Assembly (NCBI GenBank): GCA_017445905.1
Contig: JAFSRX010000013.1
Span: 15,815-79,814 of the forward strand
Direction of reading: 5' to 3'
DNA length: 64,000 bases
Source: Eubacterium sp.
GTDB taxonomy: Bacteria; Bacillota; Clostridia; Oscillospirales; Acutalibacteraceae
The notes below the pieces were generated by a model. The model was given only the letters and a program-made list of their open reading frames with translations, was not told the DNA's origin and did not search any database. The position numbers and the translations under genes are program-made. Shown here one piece after another: positions 12,689-49,811 of this stretch. Position 1 is the first letter of the stretch. Each line of letters starts with the position of its first letter.

Positions 12689-12715
12689 TTAGCACTCAGG
12701 TAATGAGAGTGCTAA
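12689..12715 (+). promoter_or_regulatory. CIRCE element (HrcA operator)
   Basis: Exact TTAGCACTC-N9-GAGTGCTAA just downstream of the groES promoter. Confidence 0.97.
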
Positions 12716-12730
12716 AGAATTTGGCAGAGG

Positions 12731-12800
12731 GAGAAATGAGAATATAATAGCTGTCCGCAGCACCCGAAAATCTCCATTCTTCATTCTCCATTTTCAATTT
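12731..12800 (+). repeat. Truncated heptamer-armed mini-element (family copy E1)
   Basis: Core ataatagctgtccgcagcaccc matches the cores at 14861, 16081 and 28575; pyrimidine heptamer arm tccattc-ttcattc-tccattt-tcaattt. Confidence 0.6.
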
Positions 12801-14794: not shown

Positions 14795-14966
14795 AATGAA
14801 TAATTAAGAATTAAGAATTAAGAATTGAGGTTTCTCGCTTCGCTCGGTCAAATAATTATTATAATAGCCGTGCGTAGCCCTTGGAGCGGGCGCCAGACCC
14901 TTTTTTCTTGCAAACTCGACATTTCCCCTAACAGGGGAATAACCCGAAATTTTCCATTTTCAATTT
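14795..14966 (+). repeat. Heptamer-armed mini-element (E2) with an internal hairpin insert
   Basis: Left arm (AATTAAG)x3, conserved core ggtttctcgcttcgctcggtcaaataattattataatagccgtgcgtagcc, insert containing ttcccc-taaca-ggggaa, right arm ttttccattttcaattt. Confidence 0.65.
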
Positions 14967-14970
14967 GAGT

Positions 14971-16044: not shown

Positions 16045-16060
16045 ATATTTATCCTAATTA

Positions 16061-16160
16061 ATTACGAATCACGAGTTTTGGGTGCTGCGCACGGCTAGCA
16101 TAATTATTGTTTGAGCGTAGCGAGTAACCGAAAACTCGGAACTCGGCACTCGCAACTCGA
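16061..16160 (-). repeat. Heptamer-armed mini-element (E3), reverse orientation
   Basis: Reverse complement gives the core cggttactcgctacgctcaaacaataattatgctagccgtgcgcagcaccc; arm (AACTCGG)-like x4 at 16133-16160. Confidence 0.65.
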
Positions 16161-16164
16161 AGGT

Positions 16165-26831: not shown

Positions 26832-28490
26832 TTACTTAACTTTTATCGTAACTGTTACCGTTACGGTTTTTGACTTATAGGCTGAAGTGCCTGCGGCTTT
26901 AACCTTAACTTTCACTTTATAAGTGCCTTTTTTAAGACCTTTTTTAACGGTGATTTTTCCGGTTTTCTTATCAACGGTTATCTTTTTGTTGCCGCTTGAC
27001 TTGGCATAGGTAACTGTTCCCTTTGCATTTGAAACGGTGATTGCCTCCTTGCGGGTTATGTACTGCGTCTTTTTCTTAAGCTTTGAATACTTAACCGTTG
27101 GCTTCTTCGCTTTTGCAGAAAGGGTGTTGGTATATTTTTCGCATTTCGCAACGGTCTTTGTTTCTTTTTTGCCGCATTCTTCACAGACGAATTCTATCAG
27201 TCCCGTTTCGGTAGGGGTTGGATATTTAGTTATTACTCCTTGACCGAAAATGTGGTCGCAGAGTTCAATCGCATATCCTCCGTCTGTTTCGCTGCTTCCG
27301 CAGAGAACACATTCGTGATACCTGAGAGCGGTTTTTCCGTAAGTCGCACAGGTAGGCTCAATTTCATCATCTATAATATTCCATTCGCCCCAGTTATGCC
27401 CGATGGAAATGAAATTATAGTTGTTTTTTTCGGCATACGCCTCAGCCGTTGAGCCTTTGCAGGCATAAATCGTCGTTAAGGCTGAGAACTTAGCTTCAAT
27501 ATTAACGGAGTACGAATAGACGTTGACTTTAGTTAAATCGACGCAGTCTGCAAAAGCCATATTTTGAATTCTTTTAACGTTTCGCGGGATATCAATGCCC
27601 TTTAATGAAGCGCATTGGCTGAACGCTGCTTCGCCGATTTCCGTTAAGCTTTCCGGGAGAGAAACATAGGTCATATTAACAAGATTATAGAAAATACCGT
27701 CATCAATACATGTTATTCCCTCTTCAACAAATGCCGTCTTAACATCGTCTTTATAACCGTAAAATCCGGGATTGCCAAAGAAATAATTATCGGTAGAGCC
27801 GGTGCCTTTAATTGTTAAAGCCTTGGTTGTATCGTTGAAAACATAGTATGCGTTGTCGCCGCAGTTACCTGCAAAGCTGTATTCATTAAATTTTGCGCCG
27901 TACAGGCAGATATTGGTTTCGGCGATTTCAATATCATCATTGAAACTGTTAACAGAGTCTGCATAATAAATGAACTCTAATTTTTCGCAGTCCGTGAAAG
28001 CGTCATCCTTTATTGAAACGAGGGCGGTCGGCAGAGATATCGCCGATAAGCTTGTACAGCCTCTGAAGGCGCCTTCGCTGATGACTGAAACAGGTCCGCG
28101 GATAAAAGCCGTTTTAAGGCTGCTGCAACCCTTAAACGCCCAGCCGGCAATTGTTGTAACGCTAAAGGGAATATCAACTCTCTCAATGTTTTCACAATCA
28201 TAGAATGCGGAATCGCCTATTTTTGTTATTCCCTCGGAGATAATAACCTTTTTAAGCGTCGTGTTTGCGTCGAAAACGCTGTCGCCTATGGCAACTACAT
28301 TCTTTCCTCCGAGAGTCGCCGGAATTACAAGCTCCTCCGCGTTGCCGTTATAGCCCGTTATCGTTGCCTGACCTGTGGAAACCGAATAGGTAAAGTCCCC
28401 GTCGGTATCGGCAAATGCCGCAATCGGCGCAGCCGAAAAGACGGACATAATCATAATCAAGGACAATAGGATTGATATGGATTTTTTCAT
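26832..28490 (-). CDS. Secreted BspA-type LRR surface protein with a Lys-rich C-terminal module
   Basis: Signal peptide, TpLRR repeats, HECVLC/CEECG motifs, ...KTVTVTVTIKVK tail. Confidence 0.88.
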   Translation of the reverse strand: MKKSISILLSLIMIMSVFSAAPIAAFADTDGDFTYSVSTGQATITGYNGNAEELVIPATLGGKNVVAIGDSVFDANTTLKKVIISEGITKIGDSAFYDCENIERVDIPFSVTTIAGWAFKGCSSLKTAFIRGPVSVISEGAFRGCTSLSAISLPTALVSIKDDAFTDCEKLEFIYYADSVNSFNDDIEIAETNICLYGAKFNEYSFAGNCGDNAYYVFNDTTKALTIKGTGSTDNYFFGNPGFYGYKDDVKTAFVEEGITCIDDGIFYNLVNMTYVSLPESLTEIGEAAFSQCASLKGIDIPRNVKRIQNMAFADCVDLTKVNVYSYSVNIEAKFSALTTIYACKGSTAEAYAEKNNYNFISIGHNWGEWNIIDDEIEPTCATYGKTALRYHECVLCGSSETDGGYAIELCDHIFGQGVITKYPTPTETGLIEFVCEECGKKETKTVAKCEKYTNTLSAKAKKPTVKYSKLKKKTQYITRKEAITVSNAKGTVTYAKSSGNKKITVDKKTGKITVKKGLKKGTYKVKVKVKAAGTSAYKSKTVTVTVTIKVK

Positions 28491-28510: not shown

Positions 28511-28632
28511 AATTCGGAATGCGGAATGCGAAATGCGGAATTAGCGGATACTCACTTAGTTCGGACAATTAATTATAAGAGGCGTGCGCAACACCATATA
28601 ACTCCGAATTCCGAACTCTGAATTCATAATAA
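28511..28632 (+). repeat. Complete heptamer-armed mini-element (E4)
   Basis: Left arm aattcgg-aatgcgg-aatgcga-aatgcgg-aatt, conserved core, complementary right arm aactccg-aattccg-aactctg-aattcat. Confidence 0.7.
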
Positions 28633-30489
28633 TTATTTTACTTTTATCGTAACGGTGACCGTTACGGTTTTTGACTTATAGGCTGAAGTGCCTGCGGCTT
28701 TAACCTTAACTTTCACTTTATAAGTGCCTTTTTTAAGACCTTTTTTAACGGTGATTTTTCCGGTTTTCTTATCAACGGTTATTTTGCTGTTACCGCTTGA
28801 TTTAGAGTAGGTCACTGTTCCTTTTGCCTTGCTTACCGTTATTGCGTCGGCACGCTTAACCGTTTGATTCTTTTTCTTTACGGCAGAATACTTAACGGTT
28901 TTTGTTTTGCCCTTTGCCGTTAAGGTGTTTGCCTTTTTAGCAAGCTTTGGAACAACCTTCTGTGCCTCGAGAATTTTTCCGCATTCTGAGCAGTGTGTGC
29001 CGGCGGTCAGTCCTGTTTTTGTATAGGTTGCTGCAACCGGTTTGTCAACAACAACCTTGTGTCCCTTTGCCATAATTGTTTTCTGCGCCTGAATAATCTC
29101 TCCGCAGGCGGAGCAATGGCTGCCCTCGGTTTTTCCCGCCTTTGTGCAGGTTGCGGCAACGGCAGAGTCGGTGACAGGTGTGTGTATGACAATTTCCGGT
29201 GAACTCGCAACAATGTATTCATAATAGTCCATATAGTTATATGAGTCCACCGACCACTCGACGCCGTCAACCGTCACATTCGTACTTTCGCTCAAAGCGA
29301 GTGTATCATTTTCATAGTTATATAAGCCGAAATGACAAATCATTTTATAGGTGCCGCAGGTGAAAGTTTCGCCGACAAGGACCTGCTTCCAACTGTCGCC
29401 GTCCTTTTTGTAATAATTTTTCGTGCCGTTCACATTATAATGTACAGGTGTGCCGACAGTTACCGTTACAGTAGGATTCACCGCTTTATTGCCTACGGCA
29501 AGAATGGAAGCAATATCGGAGGTTGCATCCATATGACTGATACGGGGTCTGTTGTCCTCTCTTTTGGATTTACAGATATTGCAGCGATAATCGGTATCGC
29601 TGTCGTAGATATGCGCTGCTTTTGTGCTATCCACCACTGCGCCGCAGTCCTTGTTTTTGCAGATGTTCCAGTGGTATTCGCCGTCCGACATCCACTGAGT
29701 TCCTGCGTTATGGGGGAGCATATCGCCCACTTCAAAGGTTTCCGTGCCTTTTCTGCCGCATTCGCAGGATTTATAGTAAACTGCTTTGCTGTGGCAGGTG
29801 GCGTCGGCTTTCTTATATTTATCTGCTACGACTTCCTGCGTAAACGAATGAGTGTGCCCAACCTGAGGCTCCATCTCATAATCGCAAACTGTGCAGAGGA
29901 TGGGGTATTCCGCTGTTGCGCTGCCCTCATGGTCGGGAGTGTGCGCCGCCGTGTCCTGTATTGCTCCGCAGTCGGGACATTCGTGCCAGTGATTTGTTTC
30001 ATCATAGTGCCACTCGGTAAAATCGTGAACGGTAAATTCGGGCGAGCGGAATACCATATACTCATATCCGCTCATAGGTCTGTACGAACGGTAGGTCCAC
30101 TCTTCGCCGTCCACCGTCAGGGTAGTATTTTCATCAAGATAATAGGTGCTGTTATCGCCGTTGTATAAGCCAAAATAGCAGGTTAATCTATATGTTCCCG
30201 TAGTAAAGGTATCGCCGGACGAGCACGCTTTGAAATTGCCGTTGTCATCCTTTTTATACCAGTTGATATTGCCTGCGGGGTTATAGAGCGCGGGCGCACC
30301 GACGGTTACCGTAATCGTCGGATTAGTTGATGTGTTAATCGGATTGCCGAAGCCGAGGAGGGACTCTATATTCGAGGTTGCAACAATTTCGGGGATATAG
30401 GTTCTCTCCTCACCGAAAGCAATACCCGACGGTATTAAATTAAATACCATAACTATCGCCGTAACCAAGCTGATTAATGCTTTTTTCAT
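28633..30489 (-). CDS. Secreted surface protein: two copies of an unrecognised ~120-aa beta domain, Cys/His repeats and the same Lys-rich C-terminal module
   Basis: Signal peptide; internal repeat ATS.I.S.L..GN...NPT.TVTVG.P..YN...GTY...C.FGLYN...VDG.EW...SPE; C-terminus shared with 26832..28490. Confidence 0.85.
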   Translation of the reverse strand: MKKALISLVTAIVMVFNLIPSGIAFGEERTYIPEIVATSNIESLLGFGNPINTSTNPTITVTVGAPALYNPAGNINWYKKDDNGNFKACSSGDTFTTGTYRLTCYFGLYNGDNSTYYLDENTTLTVDGEEWTYRSYRPMSGYEYMVFRSPEFTVHDFTEWHYDETNHWHECPDCGAIQDTAAHTPDHEGSATAEYPILCTVCDYEMEPQVGHTHSFTQEVVADKYKKADATCHSKAVYYKSCECGRKGTETFEVGDMLPHNAGTQWMSDGEYHWNICKNKDCGAVVDSTKAAHIYDSDTDYRCNICKSKREDNRPRISHMDATSDIASILAVGNKAVNPTVTVTVGTPVHYNVNGTKNYYKKDGDSWKQVLVGETFTCGTYKMICHFGLYNYENDTLALSESTNVTVDGVEWSVDSYNYMDYYEYIVASSPEIVIHTPVTDSAVAATCTKAGKTEGSHCSACGEIIQAQKTIMAKGHKVVVDKPVAATYTKTGLTAGTHCSECGKILEAQKVVPKLAKKANTLTAKGKTKTVKYSAVKKKNQTVKRADAITVSKAKGTVTYSKSSGNSKITVDKKTGKITVKKGLKKGTYKVKVKVKAAGTSAYKSKTVTVTVTIKVK

Positions 30490-43388: not shown

Positions 43389-43633
43389 TTCCCGAAGGGA
43401 AATATCGCATTGAAAATATATCGCACCGAAGGTATATCGCTAATTATTTTTATTTTTAGCAGTTGTTATCGACGCAATTAGTATTCGGCGTATAGTTCCG
43501 CATTTTTTAGAAGTTCTTTTATTGTTTTATCACTCATAAGCAAAAACATCCTTTTGGGGATATGTTGCTGAAGCAACGCGATATATTTGTTTGCAAATGC
43601 GATATTCGCTGAATATATCAGCGAGCGATATAT
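43389..43633. mobile_element. Inverted ATATCGC/hairpin arrays enclosing a gene remnant; probable degenerate mobile element
   Basis: Three ATATCGC units on + (43402-43440) and three on - (about 43578-43633), each separated by a different mini-hairpin. Confidence 0.55.
43440..43537 (-). pseudogene. C-terminal remnant of a four-helix-bundle (TIGR02436/bAvd-like) gene, frameshifted
   Basis: Minus strand reads MSDKTIKELLK / KCGTIRRILIASITTAKNKNN* across a 1-nt shift in an A6 run; by recall this resembles four-helix-bundle C-termini. Confidence 0.45.
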
Positions 43634-47931: not shown

Positions 47932-47953
47932 GGTACAGAGAACCGTCCCCTGT
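47932..47953 (+). repeat. REP-like hairpin, left of the LRR gene
   Basis: ggtacagagaaccgtcccctgt; 20/22 identical to the reverse complement of 49790-49811. Confidence 0.7.
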
Positions 47954-48010
47954 GTTTCTTGTAACGAAGCAATATAGCTTTAATGATAAAAAACATAAAA
48001 GGAGATTAAT

Positions 48011-49690: not shown

Positions 49691-49789
49691 CATCATAGCA
49701 AAACCGAATTATTGATTAAAAGCACCTTGCAGCAAAAGCTGTTTGGTGCTTTACTTGGTATCAGCCAATAAACCCCCTGCTATGTAGGT

Positions 49790-49811
49790 ACAGGGGACGG
49801 TTCCCTGTATC
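49790..49811 (-). repeat. REP-like hairpin, right of the LRR gene
   Basis: acaggggacggttccctgtatc; inverted relative to 47932-47953. Confidence 0.7.

What the first reader, a model, noticed from the sequence alone, without database searches (positions are those of the whole stretch)
28511..28632. Family of heptamer-armed mini-elements: conserved core, copy-specific but self-complementary 7-bp tandem arms
Seen: four copies in 16 kb (12731, 14795, 16061, 28511). They share a ~50-bp core (gg.t.ctc.ct.cg.tc…caa.taattat…tagccgtgcg.agcacc). The flanking 7-nt tandem repeats differ between copies (AATGCGG, AATTAAG, AACTCGG, AGAAATG), yet left and right arms within a copy are partly complementary. All copies are intergenic and none encodes a protein. 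Inference: a non-autonomous mobile or structured RNA/ssDNA element selected for arm pairing and 7-nt period rather than sequence. It may be related to the heptamer arrays that flank four-helix-bundle genes (see 43.4 kb).
Basis: partly seen in the sequence, partly recalled or inferred. Interest (0 to 1): 0.65.

Follow-up and report, generated by a model that had tools for sequence, protein, structure and literature searches.

The report
Heptamer-armed hairpin repeats tied to S23p cassettes
The four "mini-elements" belong to a family of about 200 modular repeats (7-base arrays plus small GC hairpins) that fills the gaps between genes in a few uncultured rumen Clostridia, and the same ends enclose a small "23S rRNA intervening-sequence protein" gene, so the gene-less copies look like the non-coding form of that poorly understood cassette.

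Summary
All four copies exist at the stated places and no Rfam family matches them. They are part of a genome-wide family: 238 period-7 arrays in 2.27 Mb, against 7-56 for neighbouring periods, and about 90% are intergenic.

The unit is a half-element: 3-5 heptamers (A-R-T-K-N-N-G), then a GC-rich core hairpin of at least 8 interchangeable types with covarying stems, then an AT-rich ATTATAAT junction.

The claim of copy-specific self-complementary arms fails. A copy's own arms pair no better than arms taken from other copies (P = 0.27).

The suggested link to four-helix-bundle genes is supported. In this genome (2 loci) and in congeners (8 more), the same arrays and cores bracket PF05635 (S23p) ORFs. 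At the femAB|alr junction, different species carry an empty site, an S23p cassette, a gene-less element or a bare array.

Elements start right after stop codons, mostly in sense orientation, and differ between lineages that share an identical AtpE protein. No transposase or reverse transcriptase travels with them.

Best reading: selfish, transcript-embedded, gene-less relatives of IVS/S23p cassettes, of the same kind as the heptamer arrays of Xanthomonas and cyanobacteria. How they spread is unknown.

The parts
28511..28545 (+). Copy 4 (the finding), left heptamer array: AATTCGG AATGCGG AATGCGA AATGCGG AATTAGC
   Evidence: Read. TRF period 7, 4.4 copies.
28546..28564 (+). Copy 4, degenerate A-type core GGATACTCACTTAGTTCGG (4 mismatches to the consensus; the inner mini-hairpin AC-TTA-GT keeps its pairing)
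   Evidence: (listed as C63:44360).
28565..28578 (.). Copy 4, AT-rich centre ACAATTAATTATAA. This is the place where the coding versions carry the S23p ORF.
28579..28595 (+). Copy 4, degenerate B-type core GAGGCGTGCGCAACACC with hairpin GTGC-GCA-ACAC (one stem pair broken)
   Evidence: listed as C63:44393, 3 mismatches.
28602..28629 (+). Copy 4, right array CTCCGAA TTCCGAA CTCTGAA TTCATAA, a partial complement of the left array
   Evidence: Whole-element fold z = -1.3 (+ strand) and -1.7 (- strand).
12731..12800 (+). Copy 1, in the groES 5' leader between the CIRCE operator and the RBS. It has a vestigial left arm (12731-12743), TATAAT, B-type core TAGCTGTCCGCAGCACC (12748-12764), CGAAAA, and the array TCTCCAT TCTTCAT TCTCCAT TTTCAAT (12771-12800).
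   Evidence: It is absent between CIRCE and the RBS in 17 of the 19 congener loci printed; the other two (G018, G003) have a different leader without CIRCE.
14795..14969 (+). Copy 2, between the alr stop codon and the groEL terminator. It has the array AATGAAT AATTAAG x3 AATTGAG (14795-14828), A core (14829-14847), ATTATTATAA centre, a B-type core (14865-14881) adjoining a ~65-nt GC-rich module (14881-14944), CGAAA, and a short array TTTTCCA TTTTCAA (14950-14969).
   Evidence: G018 has a different half-element at this site and G004 has only the terminator.
16057..16161 (-). Copy 3, a full element in reverse orientation between the femAB-like stop codon and the alr ATG. On the + strand it reads: array 16057-16079, reverse-complement B core GGGTGCTGCGCACGGCTA (16080-16097), centre, reverse-complement A core GAGCGTAGCGAGTAACC (16113-16129), and array ACTCGGA ACTCGGC ACTCGCA ACTCGAA (16134-16161).
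   Evidence: fold z = -3.35. Most congeners have an overlapping TAATG or a 0-20 nt gap here. G018 has an S23p cassette and G003 a bare array.
43452..43505 (-). Remnant of an S23p (PF05635) coding sequence, from a decayed cassette elsewhere in the window. It is related to the family only through the protein.
Evidence: tblastn with the C42 S23p gives 14 of 18 residues identical, E = 6e-4.

Best explanation
The four copies belong to a lineage-specific, modular family of intergenic repeats.

Anatomy (shown):
- The basic unit is a half-element. It has 3-5 tandem heptamers (A-R-T-K-N-N-G on one strand), then tt(t)cGG, then a 14-21 nt GC-rich core with a small hairpin, then an AT-rich end (ACA)ATTATAAT.
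- At least eight core types are interchangeable. Their stems covary. The opposite strand carries G-N-A triloops of the d(GCGNAGC) type.
- The same ends bracket PF05635 (S23p, '23S rRNA intervening-sequence protein') ORFs in this genome and in its relatives.

Inferred:
- The gene-less copies are the non-coding, MITE-like form of S23p/IVS-type cassettes.
- These are selfish inserts that live inside host transcripts. They sit immediately after stop codons or at the tip of a host hairpin, mostly in sense orientation.
- They turn over quickly by gain, loss and module swapping.
- Where the two arms match, as in the coding cassettes, the RNA should form a long stem that RNase III can cut, as shown experimentally for the Coxiella IVS. 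Most gene-less copies in this genome are one-armed or mismatched and are probably tolerated passengers.

Unknown: how copies spread. No transposase or reverse transcriptase is linked. S23p is the only protein that is both embedded in the elements and present in every genome rich in them.
For: Scale:
- 238 period-7 arrays, about 90% intergenic.
- 90% of 214 oriented arrays have a GC core on the same side.

Structure:
- B-core hairpin G-NNN-GCA-NNN-C is fully paired in 46 of 47 cases, with stems TGC/GCA (32), TCT/AGA (7), ACC/GGT (5) and TCC/GGA (1).
- A-core mini-hairpin stems are GC/GC, AC/GT and GGC/GCC, the last a paired insertion.

S23p link:
- Five PF05635 genes are present in the genome.
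- C28:22818-23132 is flanked by [GAGTGGA array + A core] and [B-type core + CTCCACT array].
- C67:11255-11569 is flanked by [AATTAAG array + D core] and [reverse-complement A core + CTTAATT array].
- Eight further cassettes in congeners have matching inverted arrays.
- Cassette arms fold at z = -6.6 and -3.7, against -1.2 to -3.4 for the window copies.
- All 7 genomes rich in A cores have S23p, against 26 of 61 overall.

Turnover:
- The femAB|alr site is empty in most congeners, holds an S23p cassette in G018, a gene-less element here, and a bare array in G003.
- The atpB|atpE and atpE|atpF spacers are 20-40 nt when empty, and 87-309 nt with different occupants, in lineages with an identical AtpE protein.
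- In the rpsL leader, two different elements sit at the tip of the same host hairpin in lineages whose rpsL differs by 2.6%.

Placement: single half-elements are sense 60 to antisense 20 (p = 9e-6), and 28 of the 60 sense copies start within -15..+6 nt of the upstream stop codon.

Published parallel: the Coxiella IVS has tandem GACAGAT heptamers ahead of its S23p ORF, with the RNase III cut at the first repeat (PMC4990558).
Against: - No S23p coding remnant lies inside any gene-less copy, so descent by deletion is inferred, not shown.
- G046 has 5 S23p genes but only background levels of simple arrays in a 400-kb sample, so S23p alone does not produce arrays.
- Single half-elements cannot form the long stem, and gene-less pairs have arms no better matched than random pairings, so RNase III processing cannot be the general role.
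- No target-site duplication was seen.
- The association of S23p with A-core-rich genomes is not corrected for phylogeny.
Confidence: 0.68

Rival explanations
1. REP/BIME- or REPIN-like elements. In this reading the GC hairpin cores are recognised as single-stranded DNA and moved by a RAYT-type Y1 transposase, and the heptamer arrays are only flanking sequence.
For: - The cores are small hairpins with compensatory changes, and d(GCGNAGC)-type mini-hairpins lie on one strand.
- The elements occur both as singles and as inverted pairs, as REPs and BIMEs do.
- Two RAYT-like genes of ~250 aa are present, and a few of their REPs abut heptamer arrays.
Against: - Both RAYT-like genes are flanked by their own, different REPs (GGTACAGGGGACGGTTCTCTGTACC and TTGGGGACAGTCCCCAA), not by the A, B, C or D cores.
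- RAYT-like genes are absent or only faint in the array-rich genomes G018, G066 and G023.
- Orientation follows transcription, not the inferred replication strand: 46:14 for genes on the leading strand and 18:6 on the lagging strand.
Confidence: 0.1
2. Host-selected cis-acting RNA elements in 3' UTRs and spacers between cistrons. They might act as mRNA stabilisers, as C-poor blocks against Rho loading, or as uncouplers of translation, rather than as selfish inserts.
For: - There is a strong sense-strand bias, 60:20, and the elements start at the stop codon.
- They are present in essential operons: atp, groESL and the rpsL leader.
- They are identical in six independent assemblies of the strain.
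Against: - The same sites are empty in most congeners, or occupied by unrelated arrays and cores in close lineages.
- Whole genomes of the genus lack them.
- There is no common gene class.
- The orientation bias is equally explained by selection against the harmful orientation.
Confidence: 0.12
3. Portable outward or bidirectional promoters, with the palindromic ATTATAAT centre serving as a -10 box and the hairpin forming a protective 5' end of the transcript.
For: A perfect TATAAT lies at the centre of most full elements, and many copies lie just upstream of an RBS and ATG.
Against: - There is no -35 or extended -10 at the right spacing (sequence read).
- Most single half-elements would fire antisense into the upstream gene.
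- In coding versions the S23p ORF occupies this position.
Confidence: 0.04
4. Phase-variable simple-sequence repeats (contingency loci), in which the number of heptamer units switches expression of the neighbouring gene.
For: They are tandem short repeats next to genes. The number of heptamers varies between strains in the Coxiella IVS.
Against: - The intergenic regions are identical in six independent assemblies, although their coding sequence is identical too, so this is probably one strain.
- Units within an array are not identical.
- The arrays lie after stop codons, not in promoters or reading frames.
Confidence: 0.02

Closest known systems
23S rRNA intervening sequences (IVS) that carry an S23p ORF (Coxiella burnetii, Leptospira; PMC4990558)
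   Same: - A PF05635 four-helix-bundle ORF is enclosed by inverted arms that form a long stem.
- Tandem heptamers lie just upstream of the ORF: GACAGAT x3 in Coxiella, with the number varying between strains.
- The insert sits at the tip of a host RNA hairpin. Here the example is the rpsL leader.
   Different: - Here the elements lie in mRNA spacers, not in 23S rRNA.
- Most copies have no ORF, and many have only one arm.
- GC hairpin cores sit between array and centre.
- RNase III cutting is shown for the IVS and only inferred here.
Intergenic heptamer repeats of Xanthomonas (GGGAATC) and Nostoc (GGGGAYT), Rehm et al. 2015 (PMC4692102), and the cyanobacterial STRR sequences
   Same: - About 190 arrays per genome, mostly of four units, and ~90% intergenic.
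- They lie much closer to the upstream ORF than to the downstream one (28 vs 160 nt there; medians 13.5 vs 109 nt here for sense single arrays, the second measured from the array's inner end).
- Many occur as convergent inverted pairs.
- Length and sequence vary strongly between close species.
   Different: - Those genomes use essentially one G-rich heptamer, discussed as quadruplex-forming.
- This genome uses more than 15 heptamers, mostly not G4-prone, each joined to a GC hairpin core.
- Neither of the two papers read for this point generalises a link between heptamer arrays and S23p, and three literature searches returned no paper that appeared to.
REP/BIME elements and REPINs of Proteobacteria
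   Same: - Short intergenic hairpins are present as singles and as inverted doublets, in hundreds of copies.
- They are lineage-specific and transcribed with neighbouring genes.
- The associated gene sits between two inverted copies: RAYT there, S23p here.
   Different: - No cognate Y1 transposase and no GTAG motif.
- Heptamer arrays are an integral part of the unit.
- The enclosed protein has no known catalytic activity.
BOX elements of Streptococcus pneumoniae
   Same: Both are modular intergenic repeats in a Firmicute: end modules plus a variable number of tandem internal units. Both lack a coding gene and lie within transcripts.
   Different: BOX has fixed boxA and boxC ends and a 45-nt boxB unit. 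Here the repeat unit is 7 nt, lies on the outside, and varies in sequence. This comparison rests on my own knowledge and was not tested here.
TAACTGA direct repeats of marine Beggiatoaceae (MacGregor 2015, PMC4679880)
   Same: Both involve about 170 sets of 2-6 tandem heptamers in intergenic regions, have a patchy phylogenetic distribution, and have no known function.
   Different: Those repeats use a single heptamer, lie just upstream of start codons, and have no hairpin cores and only one inverted pair.

Membership tests
S23p/IVS-type cassette (PF05635 ORF in a heptamer-armed hairpin) | A PF05635 ORF lies between the two arms | tested here: not met
   None of the four window copies, nor any gene-less copy, holds an ORF or an S23p remnant. 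Family members C28:22818-23132 and C67:11255-11569, which use the same cores and arrays, do. The window copies are therefore filed as gene-less relatives, not as cassettes.
S23p/IVS-type cassette (PF05635 ORF in a heptamer-armed hairpin) | The inverted arms are complementary and form a long stem | tested here: inconclusive
   Met for the coding cassettes: 10 of 10 have the same heptamer type on both sides, and folds give z = -6.6 and -3.7. Weak or absent in the gene-less copies.
S23p/IVS-type cassette (PF05635 ORF in a heptamer-armed hairpin) | Located in the 23S rRNA gene and excised by RNase III | not testable with these tools
   All copies seen are in mRNA spacers. No RNA data could be obtained.
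REP/REPIN | A cognate RAYT (Y1 transposase) flanked by the same repeat | tested here: not met
   The two PF01797 genes are flanked by other palindromes. RAYT-like genes are missing from several array-rich congeners.
REP/REPIN | A short imperfect palindrome with conserved structure | tested here: met
   Compensatory stem changes are seen in the B and A cores.
MITE | Terminal inverted repeats, a target-site duplication, and a related transposase-bearing IS | tested here: not met
   The arms are inverted arrays, but no duplication is visible at filled versus empty sites. No transposase gene is bounded by these ends.
Intergenic heptamer SSR arrays (STRR / Xanthomonas type) | Over-represented tandem 7-nt arrays of about 4 units, intergenic, lying near the upstream ORF | tested here: met
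   (median 4.3 units), compared with PMC4692102.
Any Rfam family | Match to a covariance model | tested here: not met
   The gathering-threshold scan of the window found only a tRNA. Permissive scans of the copies gave only noise far below threshold.

The most novel reading that the evidence does not exclude
The pentameric four-helix-bundle protein S23p and the arrays of 4-5 heptamers may form one cross-phylum genetic element. In this reading the protein binds one heptamer per subunit on single-stranded DNA or RNA next to a hairpin, and promotes copying, maintenance or exchange of the modules without a classical transposase or reverse transcriptase. The long-unexplained heptamer repeats of cyanobacteria and Xanthomonas would then be its gene-less footprints.
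Probability: 0.12. Interest if true: 0.85.

Novelty: new variant of a known kind. Interest (0 to 1): 0.6.

Why it matters
Tandem heptamer arrays between bacterial genes have been reported since 1990 in cyanobacteria, and later in Xanthomonas and Beggiatoaceae. No origin or function has been established for them. S23p is a widespread protein family whose structure is solved (PDB 2RLD) but whose role is unknown.

This genus offers a compact natural experiment:
- Array-free and array-rich species exist side by side.
- At single operon junctions there are allelic series running from empty site to S23p cassette to gene-less element to bare array.
- Interchangeable hairpin cores make module swapping visible.

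That makes the question [quoted passage not shown] directly testable with one small protein and short oligonucleotides. There is also a practical point: these elements occupy leaders and spacers of essential operons (groESL, atp, rpsL) and can mislead operon, promoter and sRNA prediction in rumen MAGs.

Tried and rejected
- **Rfam.** The gathering-threshold scan of the window and permissive scans of the copies found nothing relevant.
- **RAYT/Y1 transposase as the mobiliser.** These genes have their own, different REPs, and their distribution across genomes is inconsistent with the elements.
- **Reverse transcriptase or telomerase-like synthesis of arrays.** PF00078 is absent from all seven array-rich genomes.
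- **Arm complementarity as the selected feature.** It is not better than chance pairing among family members.
- **Replication-strand bias.** Orientation tracks gene direction on both inferred strands. The strand inference rests on local GC skew in a draft assembly and is crude.
- **Phase variation.** Six independent assemblies are identical, but their coding sequence is identical too, so the test is weak.
- **S23p coding remnants inside gene-less copies.** None were found.
- **Promoter reading of the TATAAT centre.** No -35 element is present at the right spacing.
- **S23p as sufficient for arrays.** G046 has five S23p genes and no simple arrays in a 400-kb sample.

Full report
**1. The observation**

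The sequence at 28511-28629 reads as follows:
- five heptamers (AATTCGG AATGCGG AATGCGA AATGCGG AATTAGC);
- GGATACTCACTTAGTTCGG;
- ACAATTAATTATAA;
- GAGGCGTGCGCAACACC;
- ATATAA;
- four heptamers (CTCCGAA TTCCGAA CTCTGAA TTCATAA).

They align over a left core (consensus GGTTACTCGCTTCGCTC, 'A'), a palindromic ATTATAAT, and a right core (TAGCCGTGCGCAGCACC, 'B'). Copy 12731 has no A core. Copy 14795 carries an extra ~65-nt GC-rich module. Copy 16061 is inverted. Tandem Repeats Finder reports the 7-nt arrays. All four copies lie between ORFs. Rfam has no match, neither at gathering thresholds nor in permissive scans of the copies.

**2. Scale**

The window is C63:15815-79814 of a 2.27-Mb, 75-contig assembly.
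- With up to 3 mismatches, the extended B pattern TTATAATAGCCGTGCGCAGCACC occurs 37 times, against 0 for the reversed control. With up to 2 mismatches, the A core occurs 56 times, against 0 for the reversed control.
- A simple period detector finds 238 arrays of period 7, against 8, 49, 15, 56, 7 and 19 for periods 5, 6, 8, 9, 10 and 11. Of the 238, 215 lie outside my crude gene calls, which cover 91% of the genome.
- Arrays have a median of 4.3 units: 105 have four, 61 have five and 39 have three.

**3. Anatomy**

I oriented each array by its A-R-T-K motif.
- 193 of 214 arrays have a GC-rich core on the 3' side.
- The unit is therefore a half-element: [3-5 heptamers] tt(t)cGG [core] (c)aATTATAAT.
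- Core types recognised:
  - A and A2 (37 copies);
  - the reverse complement of B and its covarying variants (42);
  - GGGTCGCTTCGCTCCGA (39);
  - GGGTCGCAAGCGACGA (10);
  - GGGCGGGACACCCGCACCCGA (12);
  - 53 others.
- The two-armed element is two half-elements head to head. Only 28-29 such pairs exist, against about 160 singles.
- The 29 pairs use 26 different core combinations, and 19 of them include a B-type half.

*Core structure.* The cores are small hairpins under structural constraint.
- Anchored only on its flanks, the B hairpin G-NNN-GCA-NNN-C is fully paired in 46 of 47 cases. Its stems are TGC/GCA (32), TCT/AGA (7), ACC/GGT (5) and TCC/GGA (1).
- The A core holds a mini-hairpin with stems GC/GC, AC/GT and GGC/GCC. 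The last is a paired insertion.
- Read on the opposite strand, the A-core loop is GAA, GCA, GTA, GGA or AAA. That is the pattern of the very stable d(GCGNAGC) DNA mini-hairpins. This last comparison rests on my own knowledge.

**4. Arm pairing**

- In the 29 pairs, the two arms share a heptamer type (at least 6 of 7 positions) in 10 cases, against 6.8 expected by shuffling partners (P = 0.09).
- RNAduplex energies of a copy's own arms are no better than with arms of other copies (permutation P = 0.27).
- All arms are partly complementary simply because all share A-R-T-K.
- The finding's own copy folds at z = -1.3 on the + strand and -1.7 on the mRNA-sense strand. The other window copies fold at -2.2, -1.2 and -3.35.

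**5. Placement**

- Single half-elements between co-directional genes have the array-to-core strand in the mRNA sense in 60 of 80 cases (p = 9e-6).
- The ratio is the same for genes on the inferred leading strand (46:14) and lagging strand (18:6). This points to transcription rather than replication as the relevant direction. The strand inference from local GC skew is crude.
- 28 of the 60 sense copies begin within -15..+6 nt of the upstream stop codon. In the earlier split of 64 sense singles, the median gap from the array's inner end to the next start codon was 109 nt.
- Between convergent genes, 19 of 25 copies are nearer the stop codon of the gene they are in sense with.
- Rehm et al. (PMC4692102) reported the same asymmetry, the same modal length of four units, and many convergent pairs for the GGGAATC arrays of Xanthomonas.

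**6. Presence, absence and turnover**

- *groES leader.* 17 of the 19 congener loci printed have promoter, CIRCE, about 25 nt, then the RBS; the two nearest relatives (G018, G003) have a different leader without CIRCE. Here about 75 nt (copy 12731) sit between CIRCE and the RBS.
- *femAB|alr junction.* Most congeners have an overlapping TAATG or a 0-20 nt gap. This genome has copy 16061. G003 has a bare AGTGGAT array. G018 has an S23p cassette.
- *alr stop to groEL terminator.* This genome has copy 14795. G018 has a different half-element. G004 has only the terminator.
- *atp operon.* I looked up contigs that encode an identical AtpE protein; these lineages differ at 7-14% of atpE nucleotides.
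  - The atpB|atpE spacer is 20 or 23 nt when empty. When filled it is 94, 142 or 147 nt, with different occupants.
  - One filled allele shares the left array exactly with this genome but has a different core.
  - The atpE|atpF spacer is 35 or 40 nt when empty, and 87, 100 or 309 nt when filled.
  - Every occupant starts right after the stop codon and leaves the native RBS on its right. No target-site duplication is visible.
- *rpsL leader.* Two lineages whose rpsL differs by 2.6% carry different elements at the tip of the same host hairpin.
- *Within the strain.* Six independent assemblies with identical GroES have identical intergenic regions. Their coding DNA is identical too, so this is probably one strain.

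**7. Distribution**

- An exact 24-mer of the A core occurs 83 times in GTDB species representatives. The records listed come from about two dozen MAGs of uncultured Clostridia, mostly from ruminant guts and variously labelled Eubacterium, Ruminococcus or Oscillospiraceae.
- Almost every one of these hits is preceded by a 4-5 unit array, but the heptamers are very different (GCTCAAG, AGCTATG, AGAGAAG, AATGATA, ACTGAAG and others).
- Within the genus (61 genomes), A cores are abundant in only seven:
  - G003, 83 copies;
  - G000 (this genome), 56;
  - G018, 45;
  - G014, 20;
  - G066, 20;
  - G051, 14;
  - G023, 9.
- In ~400-kb samples, G018 has 55 period-7 arrays, whereas G013, G017 and G046 have 2, 1 and 2.
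- The array-rich species are not simply the nearest relatives by GroES or Alr identity, so the distribution is patchy.

**8. The coding versions**

Earlier notes from this scan led me to test PF05635.
- The genome has five such genes.
- Two sit exactly where the gene-less elements have their ATTATAAT centre:
  - C28: [GAGTGGA array - A core - ATTATAT] ORF [TAA-TCGCTATGCGTAGCACC - CTCCACT array], followed by two more B halves.
  - C67: [AATTAAG array - D core] ORF [reverse-complement A core - CTTAATT array].
- In congeners, eight further S23p ORFs are bracketed by matching inverted arrays. Some have A cores (G003:C77, G018:C41, G023:C183). Others have arrays directly against the ORF (G003:C95, G003:C15, G018:C29, G072:C388).
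- A second S23p subgroup has arrays of one heptamer alternating with mini-hairpins.
- With the ORF replaced by a linker, the cassette arms fold at z = -6.6 and -3.7.
- The C28 protein matches PDB 2RLD, an entry of five chains, at E = 7.5e-33.
- All seven A-core-rich genomes have S23p genes, against 26 of 61 overall. The hypergeometric probability is about 0.0015 by my own arithmetic and is not corrected for phylogeny.
- Warrier et al. (PMC4990558) described tandem GACAGAT heptamers, varying in number between strains, just upstream of the S23p ORF in the Coxiella IVS, with the RNase III cut at the first repeat. They also cite S23p as a homopentamer.

**9. What it is not**

- The two RAYT-like Y1 transposases have their own REPs and do not co-occur with the elements across the genus.
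- No reverse transcriptase is found in any array-rich genome.
- No S23p remnants lie inside gene-less copies.
- S23p alone does not bring simple arrays, as G046 shows.

**10. Reading**

*Shown:* a modular half-element family; structural constraint on the cores; the sense and stop-codon placement; rapid turnover with empty sites; and physical enclosure of S23p ORFs by the same ends.

*Inferred:*
- The gene-less copies are non-coding relatives of S23p/IVS-type cassettes.
- They persist as inserts in host transcripts.
- Matched arms give an RNase III substrate.
- Arrays change by slippage and modules by recombination.

*Unknown:* the copying mechanism and any role of S23p.

The class (intergenic heptamer arrays, the IVS) is known. 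New here are the Firmicute family with interchangeable GC cores and the single-site allelic series that ties arrays to S23p. Neither of the two papers read on this point generalises such a link, and three literature searches returned no paper that appeared to.

Noticed in passing
G000 C67:7755-7870 (outside the window); about 40 further copies, e.g. C68:4956-5147, C72:1334-1577 and C63:121411-121607: This is a second abundant repeat. It has a hairpin (AAATCAAAATG-CAAAA-CATTTTGATTT), a strong RBS, and a 15-codon ORF (MKGFLGFCSQNSLIP; variant MKELIAFCSQNASIPK). It often lies directly after a half-element and often at contig ends, so it probably breaks the assembly.
   Followed up: partly
window 49787-49811 (+) and 47932-47956 (-); genes at G000 C42:28547-28888 and C65:3753-4085: Two RAYT-like Y1 transposase genes (~250 aa) are each flanked by their own palindromic REPs: GGTACAGGGGACGGTTCTCTGTACC (17 strand-wise matches, palindromic sites counted on both strands) and TTGGGGACAGTCCCCAA (28 such matches). 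Two copies of the first lie in the window. This is a separate repeat family.
   Followed up: partly
window 12690-12716: The CIRCE operator (TTAGCACTC-N9-GAGTGCTAA) and the groES promoter are conserved in 17 of the 19 congener loci printed (not in G018 or G003). Copy 12731 has been inserted between the operator and the RBS, which lengthens the heat-shock leader by about 75 nt.
   Followed up: partly
L268 and L271 (rpoC|rpsL spacer), and G000 C41 upstream of 41555: The rpsL leader holds a conserved host hairpin, and elements are inserted at its tip. Two lineages that differ by 2.6% in rpsL carry unrelated elements at that spot. The placement resembles that of the IVS at helix tips of 23S rRNA.
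   Followed up: partly
window 14881-14944; also G000 C54:26150-26230, C3:4300-4390, C1:95910-95990 and several MAG loci (L082, L106, L129): A ~65-80 nt GC-rich module (CTTGGAGCGGGCGCCAGACCC...CCCCTAGCAGGGGAA) recurs inside cores. In the D-type core it replaces the hairpin loop (GGCGGGA[module]CCCGCACCC), which suggests nested insertion into hairpin tips.
   Followed up: no
L230, L237, L241 (G018 samples): G018 has a further array type, TTAGGTG/CACCTAA, in runs of up to 7 units. It is often next to a different palindrome (GGCGATTCGTGAATCGCC) and also flanks one of its S23p genes.
   Followed up: no
window 26832-28490 and 28633-30489 (- strand): The two genes that flank the finding encode surface-type proteins: one has BspA-type LRR plus cadherin-like domains, the other a cadherin-like domain.
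   Followed up: no
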